A stretch of 7,202 bases of DNA from a virus. Lineage: Duplodnaviria > Heunggongvirae > Uroviricota > Caudoviricetes. Numbering within the stretch: the first letter of the stretch is position 1; each line of letters begins with the position of its first letter. The notes beneath the pieces are model-generated. The model was not told the DNA's origin. It did no database searches and saw only the letters and a program-made list of their open reading frames with translations. Of this stretch, positions 1,052 through 7,202 are shown one piece after another. Both the position numbers and the translations under genes were made by a program. The stretch lies in IMG/VR virus record IMGVR_UViG_2706794691_000013; one strand, given 5' to 3'.

Positions 1052-1583
1052 GGGCTGGTTTATTGTATGCCAAATGATTATTAAAAAGGTTGTGTTAATA
1101 ACAAGATCCGAAATAATATGCCTGCATATTTTTATCTTGCTTATATTCTGCATATTGTGCATAGCAGGCTCATCCCTGCAATCAAAACTGTATGATGAGT
1201 ATTTTTTGTTTTCCTTTTTTCCAGTCATCTGATGATGACCTGCTTCTTTTTAATCCGGATCGACATCAGTTTTTTAAGATAATNNNNNNNNNNNNNNNNN
1301 NNNNNNNNNNNNNNNNNNNNNNNNNNNNNNNNNNNNNNNNNNNNNNNNNNNNNNNNNNNNNNNNNNNNNNNNNNNNNNNNNNNNNNNNNNNNNNNNNNNN
1401 NNNNNNNNNNNNNNNNNNNNNNNNNNNNNNNNNNNNNNNNNNNNNNNNNNNNNNNNNNNNNNNNNNNNNNNNNNNNNNNNNNNNNNNNNNNNNNNNNNNN
1501 NNNNNNNNNNNNNNNNNNNNNNNNNNNNNNNNNCTTTGTGTAAATGTTAACAAATGTGCGTTTTATTTGATCTGATTCGCTGT

Positions 1584-1642: not shown

Positions 1643-2071
1643 ATGGGTTTTCGTAGCGCATCAATTCTTACGTTGATTATTAGTGGGATTATTATCGGGT
1701 GCACTGATGCTGTATCGACAAATTATCATGACCGTACATCATATTACTCCGATAAAGCAATAGAGACACAGTATGTGAGTTCATCTGAACGTACTTCTGA
1801 TGTTAGTGAGGATATCCGTCTGTATGCCCATCAAATCAAGAGCGCCATCGAAAAACAGTTCGGGGATGCGAGTAAGTATTCAGGAAAAGAGTGTACACTG
1901 AGAATGCATATGGCCCCGAATGGCCTTCTACTGGAGGTTAAAAGAGAAAGTGGAGACCTCGATTTATGTCGTGAAGCGATGAATGCGATAAAGAATGCTG
2001 ATATACCTGCCCCCCCTTCGCCGGAAGTATATAAAGTATTTCAAAATGGGGTGCTGGATTTTAAACCCTGA
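1643..2071 (+). CDS. Lipoprotein with a TolA C-terminal (domain III)-like domain, copy 1; predicted outer-membrane lipoprotein
   Basis: Complete 142-aa ORF with SD GAGG (1635-1638). Signal peptide plus lipobox MGFRSASILTLIISGIIIG|C, with Thr at +2. The C-terminal ~80 aa (AHQIKSAIEKQFGDASKYSGKECTLRMHMAPNGLLLEVKRESGDLDLCREAMNAIKNADIPAPPSPEVYKVFQNGVLDFKP) closely matches the E. coli TolA C-terminus as I recall it (...AGQIKSAIESKFYDASSYAGKTCTLRIKLAPDGMLLDIKPEGGDPALCQAALAAAKLAKIPKPPSQAVYEVFKNAPLDFKP), including both Cys. Confidence 0.8.
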   Translation: MGFRSASILTLIISGIIIGCTDAVSTNYHDRTSYYSDKAIETQYVSSSERTSDVSEDIRLYAHQIKSAIEKQFGDASKYSGKECTLRMHMAPNGLLLEVKRESGDLDLCREAMNAIKNADIPAPPSPEVYKVFQNGVLDFKP

Positions 2072-2880: not shown

Positions 2881-3096
2881 ATGAAATCCATGGACAAAAT
2901 TTCAACAGGCATTGCCTACGGCACCTCCGCAGGCAGTGCTGGCTACTGGTTTTTACNNNNNNNNNNNNNNNNNNNNNNNNNNNNNNNNNNNNNNNNNNNN
3001 NNNNNNNNNNNNNNNNNNNNNNNNNNNNNNNNNNNNNNNNNNNNNNNNNNNNNNNNNNNNNNNNNNNNNNNNNNNNNNNNNNNNNNNNNNNNNNNN
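2881..3096 (+). CDS. Class II holin (phage 21 S-type pinholin) with dual-start motif; interior and 3' end masked, end estimated from the 71-aa family length
   Basis: SD GGAGG (2869-2873), 7 nt before ATG 2881. N-terminus [25 protein letters not shown] matches the phage 21 S21 / E. coli EssD-type holin N-terminus (recalled), with Met1 and Met4 as the antiholin/holin starts. Lies immediately upstream of a SAR endolysin. Confidence 0.65.
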
Positions 3097-3282
3097 NNNN
3101 NNNNNNNNNNNNNNNNNNNNNNNNNNNNNNNNNNNNNNNNNNNNNNNNNNNNNNNNNNNNNNNNNNNNNNNNNNNNNNNNNNNNNNNNNNNNNNNNNNNN
3201 NNNNNNAAACTAATACCAATAATCTTTCTGCTACAGCGATGGTTATTGGAGAGCTGGGGAAGAGAGCACCGAAGGAAATATG

Positions 3283-3780
3283 ATGCAGTCATCATTACGC
3301 AAAGCTGTCACAGCTGCTATTGGTGGCGGGGCTATTGCCATAGCGTCTATGCTCATCACTGGCCCAAGTGGTAACGATGGTCTGGAAGGTGTCAGTTACA
3401 TACCATACAAAGATATTGTTGGTGTATGGACTGTATGTCACGGGCATACAGGAAAAGACATCATGCTCGGTAAAACGTATACCAAAGCAGAATGCAAAAC
3501 ACTCTTGAATAAAGACCTTGCCACTGTCGCCAGACAAATTAACCCGTACATCAAAGTCGATATACCGGAAACAACGCGCGGCGCTCTTTACTCGTTCGTT
3601 TACAACGTGGGTGCTGGTAATTTCAGAACATCGACGCTTCTTCGCAAAATAAACCAGGGCGATATCAAAGGCGCATGTGATCAGCTACGTCGCTGGACAT
3701 ATGCTGGCGGTAAGCAATGGAAAGGTCTCATGACTCGTCGTGAGATTGAGCGTGAAATCTGTTTGTGGGGTCAGCAATGA
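3283..3780 (+). CDS. SAR (signal-arrest-release) endolysin, phage 21 R-type lysozyme (GH24)
   Basis: Complete ORF. G/A-rich weakly hydrophobic N-terminal SAR helix ([23 protein letters not shown]); E-8x-D-5x-T catalytic spacing (LEG..KD..WT) falls at E35/D44/T50 if translation starts at ATG 3283 (the adjacent ATG 3280 is an alternative); near-identical to phage 21 R as recalled. Stop TGA 3778-3780 overlaps the Rz ATG. Confidence 0.9.
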
Positions 3781-4241
3781 ACAGAGTAACCGCGATTATC
3801 TCCGCTCTGGTTATCTGCATCATCGTCTGCCTGTCATGGGCTGTTAATCATTACCGTGATAACGCCATTACCTACAAAGCCCAGCGCGACAAAAATGCCA
3901 GAGAACTGAAGCTGGCGAACGCGGCAATTACTGACATGCAGATGCGTCAGCGTGATGTTGCTGCGCTCGATGCAAAATACACGAAGGAGTTAGCTGATGC
4001 GAAAGCTGAAAATGATGCTCTGCGTGATGATGTTGCCGCTGGTCGTCGTCGGTTGCACATCAAAGCAGTCTGTCAGTCAGTGCGTGAAGCCACCACCGCC
4101 TCCGGCGTGGATAATGCAGCCTCCCCCCGACTGGCAGACACCGCTGAACGGGATTATTTCACCCTCCGGGAACGACTGGTAATGATGCAGGCCCAACTTG
4201 AAGGTGCTCAGCAATACATAACCGAGCAGTGTTTAAAGTAA
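3777..4241 (+). CDS. Rz: i-spanin Rz (inner-membrane spanin subunit)
   Basis: ATG 3777 overlaps the endolysin stop (ATGA). N-terminal TM helix ([20 protein letters not shown]) followed by a periplasmic coiled-coil-like region rich in A/E/R/D/K; stop TAA 4239-4241. Confidence 0.85.
3997..4182 (+). CDS. Rz1: o-spanin Rz1 (outer-membrane lipoprotein), embedded in the +1 frame of Rz
   Basis: SD AAGGAG (3984-3989), 7 nt before ATG 3997. 61 aa with lipobox LVVVG|C and a proline-rich mature region ([16 protein letters not shown]); fully nested within Rz in a different frame. Confidence 0.85.
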
Positions 4242-4439
4242 NNNNNNNNNNNNNNNNNNNNNNNNNNNNNNNNNNNNNNNNNNNNNNNNNNNNNNNNNNN
4301 NNNNNNNNNNNNNNNNNNNNNNNNNNNNNNNNNNNNNNNNNNNNNNNNNNNNNNNNNNNNNNNNNNNNNNNNNNNNNNNNNNNNNNNNNNNNNNNNNNNN
4401 NNNNNNNNNNNNNNNNNNNNNNNNNNNNNNNNNNNNNNN

Positions 4440-5897
4440 NNNNNNNNNNNNNNNNNNNNNNNNNNNNNNNNNNNNNNNNNNNNNNNNNNNNNNNAANNNN
4501 NNNNNNNNNNNNNNNNNNNNNNNNNNNNNNNNNNNNNNNNNNNNNNNNNNNNNNNNNNNNNNNNNNNNNNNNNNNNNNNNNNNNNNNNNNNNNNNNNNNN
4601 NNNNNNNNNNNNNNNNNNNNNNNNNNNNNNNNNNNNNNNNNNNNNNNNNNNNNNNNNNNNNNNNNNNNNNNNNNNNNNNNNNNNNNNNNNNNNNNNNNNN
4701 NNNNNNNNNNNNNNNNNNNNNNNNNNNNNNNNNNNNNNNNNNNNNNNNNNNNNNNNNNNNNNNNNNNNNNNNNNNNGTNNNNNNNNNNNNNNNNNNNNNN
4801 NNNNNNNNNNNNNNNNNNNNNNNNNNNNNNNNNNNNNNNNNNNNNNNNNNNNNNNNNNNNNNNNNNNNNNNNNNNNNNNNNNNNNNNNNNNNNNNNNNNN
4901 NNNNNNNNNNNNNNNNNNNNNNNNNNNNNNNNNNNNNNNNNNNNNNNNNNNNNNNNNNNNNNNNNNNNNNNNNNNNNNNNNNNNNNNNNNNNNNNNNNNN
5001 NNNNNNNNNNNNNNNNNNNNNNNNNNNNNNNNNNNNNNNNNNNNTTATAGACTTGCAGGAATGCCTTTGTTTGATGCTATTTGTCACGGGATTTCCACAG
5101 TTTCGCTTGGTGGTTTCTCAACTCATAGCGAGAGTATCGGATATTTTAATAACTATTTGGTTGAGCTGGTGGCTGGTTCTTTTTCCCTGCTATCGGCTTT
5201 CAACTTCACTCTTTGGTATATTGTTATTAGCAGAAAAACGATAAAACCTTTAATCAGAGATATTGAACTTCGTTTCTTTCTGTTAATAGCCTTAGGGGTG
5301 ATCATTGTTACCTCTTTCCAGGTCTGGCATATAGGTATGTATGACTTGCATGGAAGTTTTATTCATTCGTTTTTTCTTGCCAGCTCCATGCTCACTGATA
5401 ATGGTTTAGCTACGCAGGATTATGCAAACTGGCCCACGCACACGATAGTGTTTTTGCTGTTGTCAAGTTTCTTTGGGGGATGTATAGGTTCAACCTGTGG
5501 TGGAATTAAGTCACTTCGATTTCTTATACTTTTCAAACAAAGCAAACACGAGATAAATCAGCTTTCTCATCCCAGAGCGTTGTTGAGTGTAAATGTAGGA
5601 GGGAAGATAGTTACAGATCGTGTAATGAGGTCTGTATGGAGTTTCTTTTTTCTTTATACTCTCTTCACGGTGTTTTTTATACTGGTGTTAAATGGTATGG
5701 GATATGATTTTCTTACATCATTTGCAACAGTGGCTGCATGTATTAATAATATGGGATTAGGTTTTGGGGCTACTGCATCGTCATTCGGAGTGCTTAATGA
5801 CATTGCAAAATATTTAATGTGCATAGCTATGATTCTTGGTCGCCTTGAAATTTATCCTGTTATTATATTGTTTTCAGGTTTTTTTTGGCGCTCCTAA
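4440..5897 (+). CDS. trkG: Trk-system K+ uptake protein TrkG (TrkH family); N-terminal part lies in an N-mask and the start is estimated from the ~485-aa TrkG length
   Basis: Frame open from the mask edge (5046) to TAA 5895-5897; the visible 284 aa (YRLAGMPLFDAICHGISTVSLGGFSTHSESIGYF...GGIKSLRFLILFKQ...LEIYPVIILFSGFFWRS) show TrkH-family motifs and match the Rac prophage TrkG C-terminal half as recalled. Confidence 0.8.
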   Translation, partial: XXXXXXXXXXXXXXXXXXXXXXXXXXXXXXXXXXXXXXXXXXXXXXXXXXXXXXXXXXXXXXXXXXXXXXXXXXXXXXXXXXXXXXXXXXXXXXXXXXXXXXXXXXXXXXXXXXXXXXXXXXXXXXXXXXXXXXXXXXXXXXXXXXXXXXXXXXXXXXXXXXXXXXXXXXXXXXXXXXXXXXXXXXXXXXXXXXXXXXXXXXYRLAGMPLFDAICHGISTVSLGGFSTHSESIGYFNNYLVELVAGSFSLLSAFNFTLWYIVISRKTIKPLIRDIELRFFLLIALGVIIVTSFQVWHIGMYDLHGSFIHSFFLASSMLTDNGLATQDYANWPTHTIVFLLLSSFFGGCIGSTCGGIKSLRFLILFKQSKHEINQLSHPRALLSVNVGGKIVTDRVMRSVWSFFFLYTLFTVFFILVLNGMGYDFLTSFATVAACINNMGLGFGATASSFGVLNDIAKYLMCIAMILGRLEIYPVIILFSGFFWRS

Positions 5898-6034
5898 TAT
5901 ATGGCTGATTTATAATTGTGAGTTTAATATTATGTTGACTCACTCATTGATCCAATACCTAACTTTACCAGCAACACCTCCGCCCCCAGTAGCACTGGCT
6001 GCTGGGGTGCGTTTTATTCATAAAGCAAGGCTGT

Positions 6035-6823
6035 ATGAGCGAGAAATTAAAGATAGTCTATCGCCCATTACAAGAATTGTCACCGTATGCGCACAACGCC
6101 AGGACGCACAGTACTGAGCAGGTGGCACAACTGGTAGAAAGTATTAAGCAATTCGGCTGGACTAATCCGGTGCTGATTGACGAAAAGGGCGAAATTATTG
6201 CGGGTCACGGTCGTGTTATGGCGGCTGAAATGCTCAAAATGGATTCTGTTCCGGTCATTGTTCTGTCTGGCCTGACGGATGAGCAGAAAAAGGCGTACCG
6301 CCTGGCAGATAATCGCCTGCCGATGAATGCTGGCTGGGATGAAGATCTGTTGCGGATGGAGCTGTCGGACCTAATCAATGCTGATTTTGATGTCTCCCTG
6401 ACAGGCTTCATCCCGGCAGAAATTGATGAACTGTTGACGGATGTTTTGCCCGGTACAGGAAATGAGGAGGAGCCGTATACGACGAAAATTGATACGCCTG
6501 TTTATGAGCCGTCAGGCGGTAAACCGGATATCAGTGAACTGTACGACGATACGAAAACTCAGGAGCTGATCAGCCGGATACGTTCGGCGTCCCTTGATCC
6601 TGATATTGAGAAATTCCTCCTGTGTGCAGCAGAACGTCACACGGTGTTTAATTTCAGCAGAATTGCGGACTATTACGCTCATGCCCCCGCTGAAATTCAG
6701 TGCCTTTTCGAGGAGTCGGCGCTGGTGATCATTGATTATCAGCAGGCTATTGAAAATGGATTTGTCCGAATGACGCAGCGCATGGTGGAGATCATGCATG
6801 GCGGGGAGGAGGAATATGCGTGA
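6035..6823 (+). CDS. ynaK: ParB-like nuclease domain (ParB/Srx fold) protein, full-length YnaK-like
   Basis: Complete 262-aa ORF. N-terminal ParB-N-like domain with the GHGR motif (IIAGHGRVMAA) and an acidic C-terminal half; N-terminus matches E. coli K-12 Rac YnaK as recalled (that copy is truncated); sits directly downstream of trkG, as in Rac. Confidence 0.8.
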   Translation: MSEKLKIVYRPLQELSPYAHNARTHSTEQVAQLVESIKQFGWTNPVLIDEKGEIIAGHGRVMAAEMLKMDSVPVIVLSGLTDEQKKAYRLADNRLPMNAGWDEDLLRMELSDLINADFDVSLTGFIPAEIDELLTDVLPGTGNEEEPYTTKIDTPVYEPSGGKPDISELYDDTKTQELISRIRSASLDPDIEKFLLCAAERHTVFNFSRIADYYAHAPAEIQCLFEESALVIIDYQQAIENGFVRMTQRMVEIMHGGEEEYA

Positions 6824-7202
6824 TGATTTTTGCGCCTTTATTCTGACTCACGGGCGACCGGACAAAGTTCTGACTTACCGGACGTTGCGTCGTGCTGGCT
6901 ATACCGGGAAAATTTTTATCGTTGTTGATGATGAAGATAAGACACGGCATCAGTACATGGCTGAATTTGGTGAACAGGTGCTGGTATTTTCCAAAGCCGA
7001 TATTGCTAGTCGTTTTGACGAAGCCGATAATTTTAGTGACCGCCGCTCAATTTTTTACGCCCGTAATGCCTGTTTCGACCAGGCAAAACTGGTCGGGTGT
7101 AAATACTTCATTCAGCTCGATGATGATTATCACGAGTTCCAGTTTCGGGTGGATCGCAACTATGACCAGGCCTATTTCCCGATAAGGAAACTGGATGAGA
7201 TC
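6816..7202 (+). CDS. Hypothetical protein with GT-A-like glycosyltransferase motifs (partial, continues beyond the window); possibly YdaY-like
   Basis: ATG 6816 with SD GGGGAGGAGGA (6802-6812) overlaps the ParB-like stop by 8 nt (ATGCGTGA). The frame is open to the window end: MRDDFCAFILTHGRPDKVLTYRTLRRAGYTGKIFIVVDDEDKTRHQYMAEFGEQVLVF...KYFIQLDDDYHEFQF. The beta-alpha-beta start with VVDDED and the later acidic LDDDY (DxD-like) motif resemble GT2/GT-A enzymes. Motif-level inference only. Confidence 0.55.
   Translation, partial: MRDDFCAFILTHGRPDKVLTYRTLRRAGYTGKIFIVVDDEDKTRHQYMAEFGEQVLVFSKADIASRFDEADNFSDRRSIFYARNACFDQAKLVGCKYFIQLDDDYHEFQFRVDRNYDQAYFPIRKLDEI

What the first reader, a model, noticed from the sequence alone, without database searches (positions are those of the whole stretch)
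6035..7202. Translationally coupled ParB-like nuclease-domain protein and GT-A-like protein between trkG and the packaging region
A full-length 262-aa ParB/Srx-domain protein (GHGR motif), present only as a truncated remnant in K-12 Rac as I recall, overlaps by 8 nt an ORF with a glycosyltransferase-like N-terminal Rossmann start and an acidic DDD motif. Such a pair could be a DNA or protein modification or anti-defense module rather than a structural gene, but the downstream gene is cut by the window end and its assignment rests on motifs only.
Basis: inference. Interest (0 to 1): 0.55.

Follow-up and report, generated by a model that had tools for sequence, protein, structure and literature searches.

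The report
Prophage ParB-like partner plus DNA-type glycosyltransferase
Just upstream of the DNA-packaging genes of an E. coli Rac-type prophage lie two overlapping genes, a ParB-like nucleotide-binding partner protein and a glycosyltransferase of the phage DNA-sugar-modifying TAGT family; the pair is conserved from bacteria to archaeal viruses, yet nothing in these phages supplies the hydroxymethylated base that such enzymes normally glycosylate.

Summary
ORF 6035-6823 (+, 262 aa) has a ParB/Srx nucleotide-binding domain with GHGR at 6203-6214. It overlaps by 8 nt (6816-6823) an ORF that runs off the window. In 100%-identical E. coli genomes that ORF is a 310-aa protein. It matches Pfam PF20691 (TET-associated glycosyltransferase, TAGT) at 119 bits and keeps the R...DDD...ED motif of GT-A DNA glycosyltransferases. 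TerS and TerL follow. The K-12 Rac copy is an 87-aa remnant.

The pair is an ancient two-gene module. In 73 of 76 species-level loci the TAGT gene is preceded by a homologue of this partner. Seventy-one of 77 pairs overlap, mostly by 8 or 11 nt. The module usually sits directly upstream of terminases of several unrelated families. The invariant core is a previously undefined C-terminal domain of the partner plus TAGT. The ParB domain is sometimes missing, and those pairs sit in replication modules, in four loci directly upstream of a sliding-clamp gene.

Most likely this is a late-expressed, ParB-assisted DNA glycosylation module. No 5-methylpyrimidine dioxygenase or hydroxymethylase accompanies it, so the acceptor is unknown. 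I rate it a new variant of a known kind, of moderate to high interest, and easy to test in E. coli.

The parts
5984..6017 (+). Terminator-like hairpin with a T-run after the trkG moron, 18-50 nt upstream of the ParB-like start codon. Context only: the pair must be read through from the late operon or from trkG.
   Evidence: Consensus scan. GC rises from 32-40% in trkG to 48-51% in the pair. Function not tested.
6035..6823 (+). Gene for the 262-aa ParB-like partner protein. It is the full-length form of the K-12 ynaK remnant.
   Evidence: PHROG_620 1.7e-90. AlphaFold2 model built with a 90-sequence alignment, mean pLDDT 80. K-12 remnant shown.
6035..6439 (+). Nucleotide-binding domain of the ParB/Srx fold (residues 1-135). 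It includes NARTH (box I-like), GHGR at 6203-6214 (box II-like) and ADN (box III-like).
6476..6526 (+). Invariant linear motif Y148-T-x-K-I-x-x-P-x-Y157-E-P-x-G-x-x-P164 in the otherwise disordered acidic linker. Proposed docking peptide for TAGT; alternatively an acceptor site.
   Evidence: The motif residues Y148 and Y157 are invariant, and P155 nearly so, across 36 partners from bacteria, an archaeon and an archaeal virus, and the motif is kept in partners that have only the C-terminal domain. pLDDT is below 50 for residues 137-153. The proposed role is inference.
6527..6754 (+). Conserved C-terminal domain (about residues 165-240), a four-helix domain. This is the part of the partner that always accompanies TAGT.
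   Evidence: It is better conserved than the ParB domain. It occurs alone as proteins of about 130-150 aa directly upstream of TAGT. It is always C-terminal in 1,189 clusters at 50% identity. pLDDT is about 87-94. It has no specific PDB match and no Pfam or PHROG family of its own.
6803..6823 (+). Coupling junction: the Shine-Dalgarno-like run GGGGAGGAGGAA (6803-6814), the TAGT start ATG 6816, and the partner stop TGA 6821-6823, giving an 8-nt overlap.
   Evidence: Read directly from the sequence. The same geometry recurs in 71 of 77 pairs elsewhere: 8 nt in 25 pairs and 11 nt in 35.
6816..7202 (+). First 129 codons of the TAGT-family GT-A glycosyltransferase gene, cut by the window end (310 aa in identical genomes). 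Motifs inside the window are R14 (6855-6857), DDEDK (6927-6941) and DDD102-104 (7119-7127).
   Evidence: PF20691 at 75 bits on the fragment and 118.9 bits on the full protein. PHROG_842 7.5e-104. Invariant R14, D102-D104 and E188-D189 in an alignment of 14 diverse homologues.

Best explanation
This is a two-protein DNA sugar-modification module of a temperate phage, expressed with the late (lysis and packaging) genes. The downstream protein is the enzyme, a nucleotide-sugar-dependent GT-A glycosyltransferase of the TAGT family. The upstream protein is not a partition protein and probably not a nuclease. It is an accessory subunit with three parts. (i) A ParB-type nucleotide-binding domain of the same subfamily that phages fuse directly to DNA methyltransferases. 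(ii) An invariant linker peptide. (iii) A small helical C-terminal domain that is specific to TAGT. The two genes are translationally coupled, so the proteins are made together and presumably form a complex. The partner then activates TAGT or holds it on double-stranded DNA, as the ParB-like activators of phage thymine dioxygenases do. Progeny DNA would be glycosylated after replication, around the time of packaging, and would be protected from restriction in the next host. Shown here: family memberships, catalytic motifs, fold of the ParB domain, gene overlap, conservation of the pair and its position. Inferred: complex formation, DNA as the acceptor, timing, and the anti-restriction role. 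Unknown: the acceptor atom. No enzyme that makes 5-hydroxymethyl-pyrimidines was found with the module.
For: TAGT membership is well above threshold and covers the full Pfam model. The motifs R14, D102-D104 and E188-D189 are invariant from E. coli to a haloarchaeal virus; they correspond to the R...DDD...ED[Y/F] active-site motif described for phage GT-A DNA glycosyltransferases and trypanosome JGT (bioRxiv 10.1101/2023.12.21.572611). The family founder, the T2/T6 beta-glucosyl-HMC-alpha-glucosyltransferase, acts on DNA (PMC13216743). The partner's N-domain has the CTP-binding ParB/PadC/KorB fold. The residues that align with the phosphate-binding ones are kept: R23, R60, N93. The closest sequence relatives of that domain are N-termini of DNA methyltransferases. 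The pair is conserved in 73 of 76 species-level loci, and 71 of 77 pairs overlap. It lies directly upstream of TerS/TerL of at least four unrelated TerL families. That is the 'ParB-terminase locus' which Aravind's group predicted modifies phage DNA during packaging (PMC4738411; PMC8256090). Where the ParB domain is missing, the C-terminal-domain-plus-TAGT pair sits in replication modules, in four loci directly upstream of a DNA polymerase III beta clamp gene and elsewhere beside a DNA polymerase or helicase, which is again a DNA-centred context. There is a precedent for ParB-like proteins without a DNA-binding domain activating a DNA-modifying enzyme specifically on dsDNA (PMC13229309). TAGT residues 223-290 are basic, pI 9.6.
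Against: Every characterised relative glycosylates a hydroxyl on 5hmC, on 5hmU, or on a sugar already attached to them. No TET/JBP dioxygenase or ThyA-type hydroxymethylase was found in the whole Rac-type prophage. None was found within 10 kb of the pair in five unrelated contigs. None is among the common neighbours in about 60 species. Canonical E. coli DNA therefore offers no known acceptor. One TAGT-family member, GREB1, glycosylates a protein (PMC7968844). The partner is uniformly acidic (median pI 4.55) and has no recognisable DNA-binding helix-turn-helix. The residues that align with the CTP-hydrolysis Q and E of ParB are N21 and H58. No complex, activity or modified base was observed here. 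The GT-A fold of this particular protein was not modelled.
Confidence: 0.5

Rival explanations
1. Protein glycosylation. TAGT glycosylates a protein rather than DNA. The target could be its own partner, on the invariant Tyr/Thr of the linker motif in a glycogenin-like manner, or a packaging or virion protein, or a host protein.
For: GREB1, a TAGT-family domain, O-GlcNAcylates a protein. No hydroxymethyl-base supply was found. The motif YTxKIxxPxYEP has invariant Tyr in a disordered segment next to the enzyme's gene. Additional GT2 genes lie near capsid genes in one related contig.
Against: The ParB nucleotide-binding domain is otherwise fused to DNA methyltransferases. The variant without that domain sits beside sliding clamp, DNA polymerase and helicase genes. 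All characterised prokaryotic and viral TAGT or GT-A relatives act on DNA. No structural protein is consistently adjacent.
Confidence: 0.2
2. Packaging accessory. The ParB-like protein is a nuclease or a pac/cos-site accessory of the terminase, and the glycosyltransferase is an unrelated passenger (moron).
For: The module is constantly adjacent to TerS/TerL. Database names such as 'ParB-like nuclease' are attached to it. In Nocardia phage NTR1 the pair directly precedes TerL with no annotated TerS.
Against: The best-conserved part of the partner is the TAGT-specific C-terminal domain, not the ParB domain. The two genes overlap in 71 of 77 pairs. The C-terminal-domain-plus-TAGT pair also occurs away from terminases, in replication modules. 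The associated terminases belong to unrelated families with different packaging chemistries. Most loci have a separate TerS.
Confidence: 0.1
3. Small-molecule or RNA glycosylation for counter-defence, for example inactivating a nucleotide-derived immune signal or modifying a tRNA. The ParB-like domain would act as a nucleotide-binding or kinase-like subunit, since Srx and SerK share this fold.
Against: Top structural and sequence matches are CTP-binding ParB, PadC and KorB, not the kinases. Expression in the late operon next to the terminase is a poor fit for early counter-defence. The PADLOC library gave no hit other than the methyltransferase-type N-domain.
Confidence: 0.1
4. Decaying remnant. 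The pair is what is left of a former dioxygenase-ParB-GT pathway and no longer has a function in E. coli.
For: ParB, GT and terminase commonly co-occur with phage 5mYOX dioxygenases. Rac-type prophages are often defective: K-12 has a deletion, and the EC2 copy has several pseudogenes.
Against: Both ORFs are intact in hundreds of genomes. Of 5,426 complete E. coli genomes, 914 carry at least 80% of the region at 90-100% identity. Catalytic and motif residues are invariant. The dioxygenase-less arrangement is the rule in about 75 species from many phyla. Inducible E. coli and Salmonella phages carry it.
Confidence: 0.05

Closest known systems
T2/T6 beta-glucosyl-HMC-alpha-glucosyltransferase (founding member of Pfam PF20691 TAGT; PHROG_842)
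   Same: Same Pfam and PHROG family. Phage-encoded. The family is assigned to the GT-A fold and acts on DNA (PMC13216743).
   Different: The T-even enzyme adds a second glucose to glucosyl-5hmC made by a pre-replicative dCMP hydroxymethylase pathway plus alpha-GT. Here there is no hydroxymethylase, no alpha- or beta-GT, and an obligatory overlapping partner gene. Similarity is too low for tblastn: no T-even phage is among the 36 phage records hit.
ParB-dependent phage thymine dioxygenases (5mYOX/ParB pairs; O'Toole et al., PNAS 2026, PMC13229309)
   Same: A ParB-like protein with a nucleotide-binding domain and a C-terminal domain but no DNA-binding domain, encoded next to a post-replicative DNA-modifying enzyme and often near a terminase. 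The activator works with its cognate enzyme.
   Different: The client enzyme here is a glycosyltransferase, not a dioxygenase. No dioxygenase is present. Whether the C-terminal domains are homologous was not tested, because no sequences from that paper were available to me.
ParB-N-domain/DNA methyltransferase fusions of phage 'ParB-terminase' loci (Iyer, Zhang and Aravind; PMC4738411)
   Same: The N-domain (residues about 3-144) is most similar to the N-termini of these methylases (PHROG_498 6e-51, PADLOC MTase_II 1.5e-38). The position upstream of the terminase is the same.
   Different: There the ParB domain is covalently fused to the enzyme. Here it is fused to an adaptor domain and the enzyme is a separate, translationally coupled protein with different chemistry.
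5mYOX/TET-associated GT-A DNA glycosyltransferases and trypanosome base-J glucosyltransferase JGT
   Same: The R...DDD...ED active-site motif. The acceptor is DNA.
   Different: Those enzymes use 5hmC or 5hmU produced by a neighbouring dioxygenase. No such neighbour is found here.
GREB1 (animal TAGT-family domain)
   Same: Same glycosyltransferase family. PGAP names the E. coli protein 'GREB1-related'.
   Different: GREB1 is a 1,949-aa eukaryotic protein that O-GlcNAcylates the oestrogen receptor (PMC7968844). It has no ParB partner.
Chromosomal/plasmid ParB, Noc, KorB and PadC CTPase clamps
   Same: The fold of the N-domain, and conservation of the residues that align with the phosphate-binding ones.
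   Different: No helix-turn-helix DNA-binding domain was detected. There is no ParA and no parS-like palindrome nearby. The residues aligning with the CTP-hydrolysis Q and E are N and H. The protein is acidic throughout.

Membership tests
Pfam PF20691 TAGT (TET-associated glycosyltransferase) | Profile match above the curated gathering score over the whole domain | tested here: met
   118.9 bits against a cut-off of 27.5, model positions 4-205 of 205. The fragment inside the window alone scores 75.1 bits.
Pfam PF20691 TAGT / phage GT-A DNA glycosyltransferases | Active-site motif R...DDD...ED[Y/F] | tested here: met
   R14, D102-D103-D104 and E188-D189 (followed by V190) are invariant in 14 homologues from E. 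coli to HHTV-2. The motif is as described in bioRxiv 10.1101/2023.12.21.572611. The third position is V rather than Y/F.
Pfam PF20691 TAGT / phage GT-A DNA glycosyltransferases | GT-A fold | not tested
The fold is taken from the literature on the family (PMC13216743). The PDB holds no sequence relative.
Pfam PF20691 TAGT / phage GT-A DNA glycosyltransferases | Genomic association with an enzyme that makes the hydroxymethyl acceptor (TET/JBP dioxygenase or ThyA-type hydroxymethylase) | tested here: not met
   None is annotated or detected in the whole EC2 prophage. None lies within 10 kb of the pair in 5 contigs with Pfam labels. None is among the 25 commonest families of 149 upstream neighbours. 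Caveat: divergent dioxygenases can escape PF12851.
Pfam PF20691 TAGT / phage GT-A DNA glycosyltransferases | Transfer of a sugar from a nucleotide sugar to DNA | not testable with these tools
   Needs biochemistry or LC-MS of DNA.
ParB/Srx N-terminal domain (PF02195) CTP-binding proteins | Profile match and fold | tested here: met
ParB/Srx N-terminal domain (PF02195) CTP-binding proteins | Nucleotide-binding and hydrolysis residues (box I QPR, box II GERR, box III ENxxR) | tested here: inconclusive
   The alignment to Noc/ParB places NAR(T) on QPR(T), GHGR on GERR and ADN on EN. The residues that align with the phosphate-binding ones (R23, R60, N93) are kept. Those aligning with the hydrolysis Q and E are N21 and H58. 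Residue roles are taken from PMC13229309. Binding was not tested.
Canonical partition ParB | Helix-turn-helix DNA-binding domain, parS site and ParA partner | tested here: not met
   No HTH hit for residues 140-262. No ParA gene in the locus. No parS-like palindrome near the genes. The protein is acidic, pI about 4.5.
Phage 'ParB-terminase (Tls)' DNA-modification locus (Aravind group) | ParB-domain gene plus a DNA-modifying enzyme immediately upstream of the terminase genes | tested here: met
   E. coli locus. The same order is seen in Lactobacillus, Porphyromonas and Nocardia phages, in a haloarchaeal virus, and in most of the roughly 60 species-level loci examined. The definition is from PMC4738411.
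ParB-dependent DNA-modifying enzyme pairs (PMC13229309) | Enzyme activity on dsDNA requires the cognate ParB-like protein | not testable with these tools
   Only the genetic coupling is shown: 71 of 77 pairs overlap.

The most novel reading that the evidence does not exclude
The module glycosylates DNA that contains only canonical bases. That could be N-glycosylation of an exocyclic amine or capping of a DNA hydroxyl. The sugar transferase would be tethered through a dedicated adaptor domain to a ParB-type CTP clamp, or to the replicative beta clamp in the variants that lack the ParB domain. This would be a new chemical class of DNA modification, and at least 17% of complete E. coli genomes carry the genes for it.
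Probability: 0.2. Interest if true: 0.85.

Novelty: new variant of a known kind. Interest (0 to 1): 0.6.

Why it matters
Phage DNA glycosylation is known almost only from lytic phages that first make hydroxymethylated pyrimidines. A 2026 survey noted that 288 of 753 TAGT-encoding phage genomes carry 'solitary' TAGT homologues of undefined function (PMC13216743). This locus is a tractable example of that open problem. It is a two-gene cassette in an inducible E. coli prophage type and is absent from K-12, so K-12 is a natural null background.

The analysis adds three things. TAGT of this clade comes with an obligatory, translationally coupled partner. The partner's conserved core is an undescribed C-terminal domain plus a linear motif, not the ParB domain. 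The pair is conserved across bacterial phyla and archaeal viruses without any dioxygenase.

If the product is glycosylated DNA, the module would extend ParB-assisted DNA modification from oxidation and methylation to glycosylation. It would also point either to a new acceptor chemistry or to a hidden source of acceptor. It could matter for restriction evasion, for phage therapy host range, and for sequencing artefacts in E. coli prophage DNA. If the target is a protein, the module would be a prokaryotic counterpart of GREB1.

Tried and rejected
(1) Single-sequence AlphaFold2 of the partner gave pLDDT 36 and was useless. It was repeated with a 90-sequence alignment.

(3) Profile searches of PDB sequences found no relative of the C-terminal domain and none of TAGT.

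(4) Pfam gave only a marginal Phage_Gene47 hit (E 0.1) in the C-terminal domain, which I disregard. PHROGs has no separate family for that domain.

(5) I looked for a Rosetta-stone fusion of the C-terminal domain to TAGT among longer homologues. None was found, only N-terminal extensions, one of them weakly methyltransferase-like.

(6) I looked for a parS-like palindrome around the genes and found nothing convincing.

(7) I tried to read Iyer et al. 2013 (NAR), which defined TAGT. It is not held in the library, so its views are cited only through later papers.

(8) I searched the literature for a characterised ParB-TAGT pair, for ynaK function, and for HHTV-2 DNA modification. Nothing relevant turned up except an over-expression screen of the K-12 remnant.

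(9) I checked whether a large lytic Vibrio phage carrying the short variant encodes a hydroxymethylase. Only the first 50 kb of the genome was read. It holds a thymidylate synthase next to DHFR, which is probably a genuine TS. The check is inconclusive and was not pursued.

(10) Readings considered and rejected: partition system (no ParA, no parS, no HTH); serotype-converting Gtr-type glycosyltransferase (no membrane segments, wrong family); anti-phage defence system (PADLOC hit only to the methyltransferase-type N-domain).
Full report
**Observation**

The window holds an ATG-initiated ORF at 6035-6823 on the + strand, encoding 262 aa. GHGR is residues 57-60 (6203-6214). A second ORF starts at ATG 6816, eight bases before the end of the first ORF's stop codon (TGA 6821-6823). 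It is preceded by a purine-rich run GGGGAGGAGGAA (6803-6814) and stays open to the window end, 129 codons in all. Its DDD motif is residues 102-104 (7119-7127).

Both are real genes. The first passes Pfam ParB_N (29.3 bits, cut-off 26.3) and matches PHROG_620 over its whole length (1.7e-90). The second matches Pfam PF20691, 'TET-associated glycosyltransferase' (TAGT), at 75 bits on the fragment.

The 1,303 bases from 5900 to 7202 are 100% identical to several complete E. coli chromosomes. Of 5,426 complete E. coli genomes, 1,590 have a match and 914 carry at least 80% of the stretch.

**Extending the cut gene**

In E. coli EC2 (locus L001, 100% identical) the downstream gene encodes 310 aa. 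PGAP names it 'GREB1-related protein'. It scores 118.9 bits against PF20691 over model positions 4-205 of 205 and 7.5e-104 against PHROG_842, which is annotated beta-glucosyl-HMC-alpha-glucosyltransferase.

The gene order is essD, rrrD, rzpD, trkG, ParB-like, TAGT, a 69-aa ORF with TerS-like similarity, TerS, TerL, portal and head genes. The element is a Rac-type prophage integrated next to ttcA, with intR, recET, kilR and sieB and lambda-like tail genes.

In K-12 MG1655, ynaK is 87 aa and abuts ydaY. The rest of the partner gene, TAGT, the terminase and the head genes are deleted. PGAP's label 'incomplete ynaK' on the intact EC2 gene is carried over from that remnant.

**The enzyme**

Fourteen homologues were aligned. 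They came from enterobacteria, other bacteria, Lactobacillus phage phi jlb1, Nocardia phage NTR1 and the haloarchaeal virus HHTV-2. They are 41-81% identical to the E. coli protein. Invariant residues include R14, D41, D68, D71, R83, D102-D103-D104, Q149, G151, D152, R166, K167, N187-E188-D189 and H260-H261.

R14, the DDD triplet and E188-D189 correspond to the R...DDD...ED[Y/F] active-site motif reported for phage GT-A DNA glycosylases-of-sugar-transfer type enzymes, that is phage GT-A DNA glycosyltransferases, and for trypanosome JGT. The literature places TAGT in the GT-A fold and identifies the T2/T6 enzyme, which adds a second glucose to glucosyl-5hmC, as a member. The same paper notes that 288 of 753 GT-encoding phage genomes have 'solitary' TAGT homologues of undefined function.

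I did not model the fold of this protein. No PDB entry is a sequence relative.

**The partner protein**

An AlphaFold2 model built with 90 homologues has mean pLDDT 80. It divides into four parts:

- a confident N-domain (residues 1-135);
- a disordered acidic linker (137-153);
- a confident four-helix C-terminal domain (about 165-235);
- a disordered acidic tail.

A profile alignment to Noc/ParB puts GHGR on the box II GERR, NAR(T) on box I QPR(T), and ADN on box III EN. Using the residue roles given in PMC13229309, the residues that align with the phosphate-binding ones are retained (R23, R60, N93). Those that align with the hydrolysis Gln and Glu are Asn and His.

The closest sequence relatives of residues about 3-144 are the N-termini of DNA methyltransferases: PHROG_498 at 6e-51, PADLOC MTase_II at 1.5e-38, and several methylases in the viral structure library.

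Nothing resembling a ParB helix-turn-helix was detected. The locus has no ParA and no parS-like palindrome. The protein is acidic in every segment, and the median pI of 90 homologues is 4.55.

**The conserved core is the C-terminal domain plus TAGT**

I scanned one genome per GTDB species with TAGT patterns and obtained 76 loci from many phyla, including an archaeon, Saccharibacteria, Bacteroidota, Firmicutes, Proteobacteria and Planctomycetes. In 73 of them, and in all 80 IMG/VR loci, the ORF immediately upstream on the same strand is a phmmer homologue of the window's partner protein. The three exceptions are a locus where the contig end cuts TAGT itself (L068) and two that hold only part of TAGT (L078, L082).

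With TAGT starts placed by homology, 71 of 77 pairs overlap. The overlap is 8 nt in 25 pairs and 11 nt in 35.

The alignment of 36 partners shows that the ParB domain is only moderately conserved. The linker motif YTxKIxxPxYEPxGxxP and the C-terminal domain are much better conserved. The domain consensus reads FLxxAAxRHxVFNYxKIAEYYAHAxxExQxLMExSALVIID. Invariant residues are Y148, Y157, L195, R201, F205, A211, Y214, Q222, E226, L230, I232, D234 and A238.

In about ten loci, and in 190-kb lytic Vibrio phages, the upstream gene encodes only the motif plus the C-terminal domain, in proteins of about 130-150 aa.

A search of 1.8 billion representative proteins with this domain found 1,189 clusters. 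In all 150 best-scoring clusters that were listed, the domain lies at or near the C-terminus. Typical hosts are proteins of 250-300 aa or of 130-200 aa. The domain has no Pfam or PHROG family of its own and no PDB relative.

**Genomic context**

The two genes downstream of TAGT in about 60 diverse loci are dominated by TerS and TerL. The TerL proteins belong to several unrelated families: Terminase_6N in 20 loci, Terminase_3 in 16, GpA in 3-4, TerL_ATPase in 4, and T7-type in 4.

Annotated phages show the same order: Lactobacillus phi jlb1, Porphyromonas phage005b, Nocardia NTR1 and HHTV-2. So do contigs with precomputed Pfam labels.

The loci with the short partner are different. Their pair sits in replication modules. 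In four loci it lies directly upstream of a DNA polymerase III beta clamp gene, and in others it lies beside a family A or B DNA polymerase or a helicase.

Upstream neighbours are heterogeneous. DNA methylases occur occasionally: N6/N4 in 5 cases and C5 in 4, out of 149 proteins.

No TET/JBP dioxygenase or ThyA-type hydroxymethylase was seen in any of the following:

- among the common neighbour families;
- within 10 kb of the pair in five independent contigs;
- anywhere in the EC2 prophage, including its unannotated ORFs.

The caveat is that divergent dioxygenases can escape the Pfam model.

**Interpretation**

The arrangement fits the 'ParB-terminase locus', which Aravind's group predicted modifies phage DNA in connection with packaging. 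It also parallels the recent demonstration that ParB-like proteins lacking a DNA-binding domain activate cognate phage thymine dioxygenases specifically on dsDNA.

My best explanation is a late-expressed, two-subunit DNA glycosylation module. TAGT is the catalytic subunit. The partner's motif and C-terminal domain bind it. The ParB nucleotide-binding domain, or a sliding clamp in the replication-module variants, provides the link to DNA. The module lies in the late operon downstream of the lysis genes. The trkG moron lies between them and has its own terminator-like hairpin at 5984-6007. This placement would limit modification to the end of the lytic cycle, as with other late anti-restriction functions.

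The steps actually shown are family membership, motifs, the fold of the N-domain, gene overlap, and conservation of the pair and its position. Complex formation, DNA as the acceptor, and the biological role are inferred.

The main weakness is chemical. Known relatives need a hydroxymethyl-pyrimidine or a sugar already attached to one, and none is provided here. That leaves two possibilities open. One is a protein acceptor: GREB1 is a precedent, and the invariant Tyr/Thr motif is a candidate site. The other, more interesting, is direct glycosylation of canonical DNA.

**Comparison and novelty**

Both proteins fall into catalogued families: PF20691/PHROG_842 and PF02195/PHROG_620. The general idea of ParB-associated DNA modification next to terminases is published.

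In the held library I found no paper that describes or tests the following points:

- the obligatory, overlapping ParB-like/TAGT pair without a dioxygenase;
- the C-terminal domain and linear motif as the true TAGT partner;
- the alternative architecture with only the C-terminal domain, located in replication modules.

I therefore rate the finding as a new variant of a known kind. Interest is moderate to high. The finding does not overturn expectations, but it turns the open question of 'solitary TAGTs' into a two-gene experiment in E. coli K-12, which naturally lacks the module.

Noticed in passing
window 1284-1533, 2610-2865, 2957-3206, 4242-4494, 4497-4776, 4779-5044: Six runs of 250-280 N mask parts of the window, including parts of the holin region and most of the 5' half of trkG. 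ORFs listed across them contain long X stretches.
   Followed up: partly
window 1643-2071 and 2222-2884: Two paralogous ORFs carry a TolA C-terminal-domain-like sequence upstream of the lysis cassette. PGAP calls the equivalents in EC2 'TolA' (partial) and 'TolA C-terminal domain-containing protein'. They may be prophage morons that mimic TolA domain III, for example to block colicin or filamentous-phage entry.
   Followed up: no
window 3765-4241 with embedded 3997-4182: This is an Rz-like spanin gene with an embedded Rz1-like lipoprotein ORF ([20 protein letters not shown]...) in another frame. It follows lysozyme rrrD (3280-3780) and is an ordinary lambdoid lysis cassette.
   Followed up: no
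window 5061-5897 and 5984-6017: The trkG moron has much lower GC (32-40%) than the flanking phage genes (48-51%). It is followed by a terminator-like hairpin with a T-run that ends 18 nt before the ParB-like start codon.
   Followed up: partly
L001 12136-12393 (corresponds to window 6035-6292): PGAP annotates the intact 262-aa gene as an 'incomplete, missing C-terminus' ynaK pseudogene in EC2 and leaves 12394-12916 unannotated, although the ORF is open. This is an annotation artefact inherited from the 87-aa K-12 remnant.
   Followed up: yes
K-12 MG1655 ynaK (L163 4378-4641): An over-expression screen reported that the 87-aa YnaK remnant, a truncated ParB nucleotide-binding domain, raised MICs of six antibiotics by 3- to 6-fold (PMC12924614). 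The mechanism is unknown.
   Followed up: no
L036 (T291-P134-T302), L067 (P113-T269-P132-T301), L072 (P191-T282-T281): Some genomes carry two TAGT genes or two partner/TAGT pairs in tandem. This suggests stepwise building of a glycan or two acceptor specificities.
   Followed up: no
L164 7905-8960; L175 17837-20316: Additional GT2-family glycosyltransferase genes lie near the pair. One is two genes upstream in L164. A run of four follows the capsid gene in L175.
   Followed up: no
L001 14176-14241 (inside terS): Three 15-nt direct repeats, AAAAA[GT][TC]TGCGCAGA, lie in the low-complexity Lys/Gln/Ala-rich part of the 364-aa TerS gene. They could be a pac-like recognition array or simply reflect the repetitive coding sequence.
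   Followed up: no
L001 13786-13849 / 13827-14036: The E. coli TAGT has an extra C-terminal tail of about 20 aa that is absent from most homologues (about 285-290 aa). The tail overlaps the next 69-aa ORF by 23 nt. That ORF resembles part of a TerS (PHROG_309).
   Followed up: partly
L035 189-1739: One partner homologue is 516 aa and has a weak N-terminal SAM-methyltransferase-like region ahead of the ParB domain. This would be a methyltransferase/ParB/C-terminal-domain fusion sitting upstream of TAGT.
   Followed up: partly
L001 1778-2740 and 2756-3758: Two poorly annotated ORFs lie in the early region of the EC2 prophage. One has a weak HEPN/RES N-terminal domain hit. The other is frameshifted and has a weak GNAT hit. 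They may be defence or toxin morons and are unrelated to the finding.
   Followed up: partly
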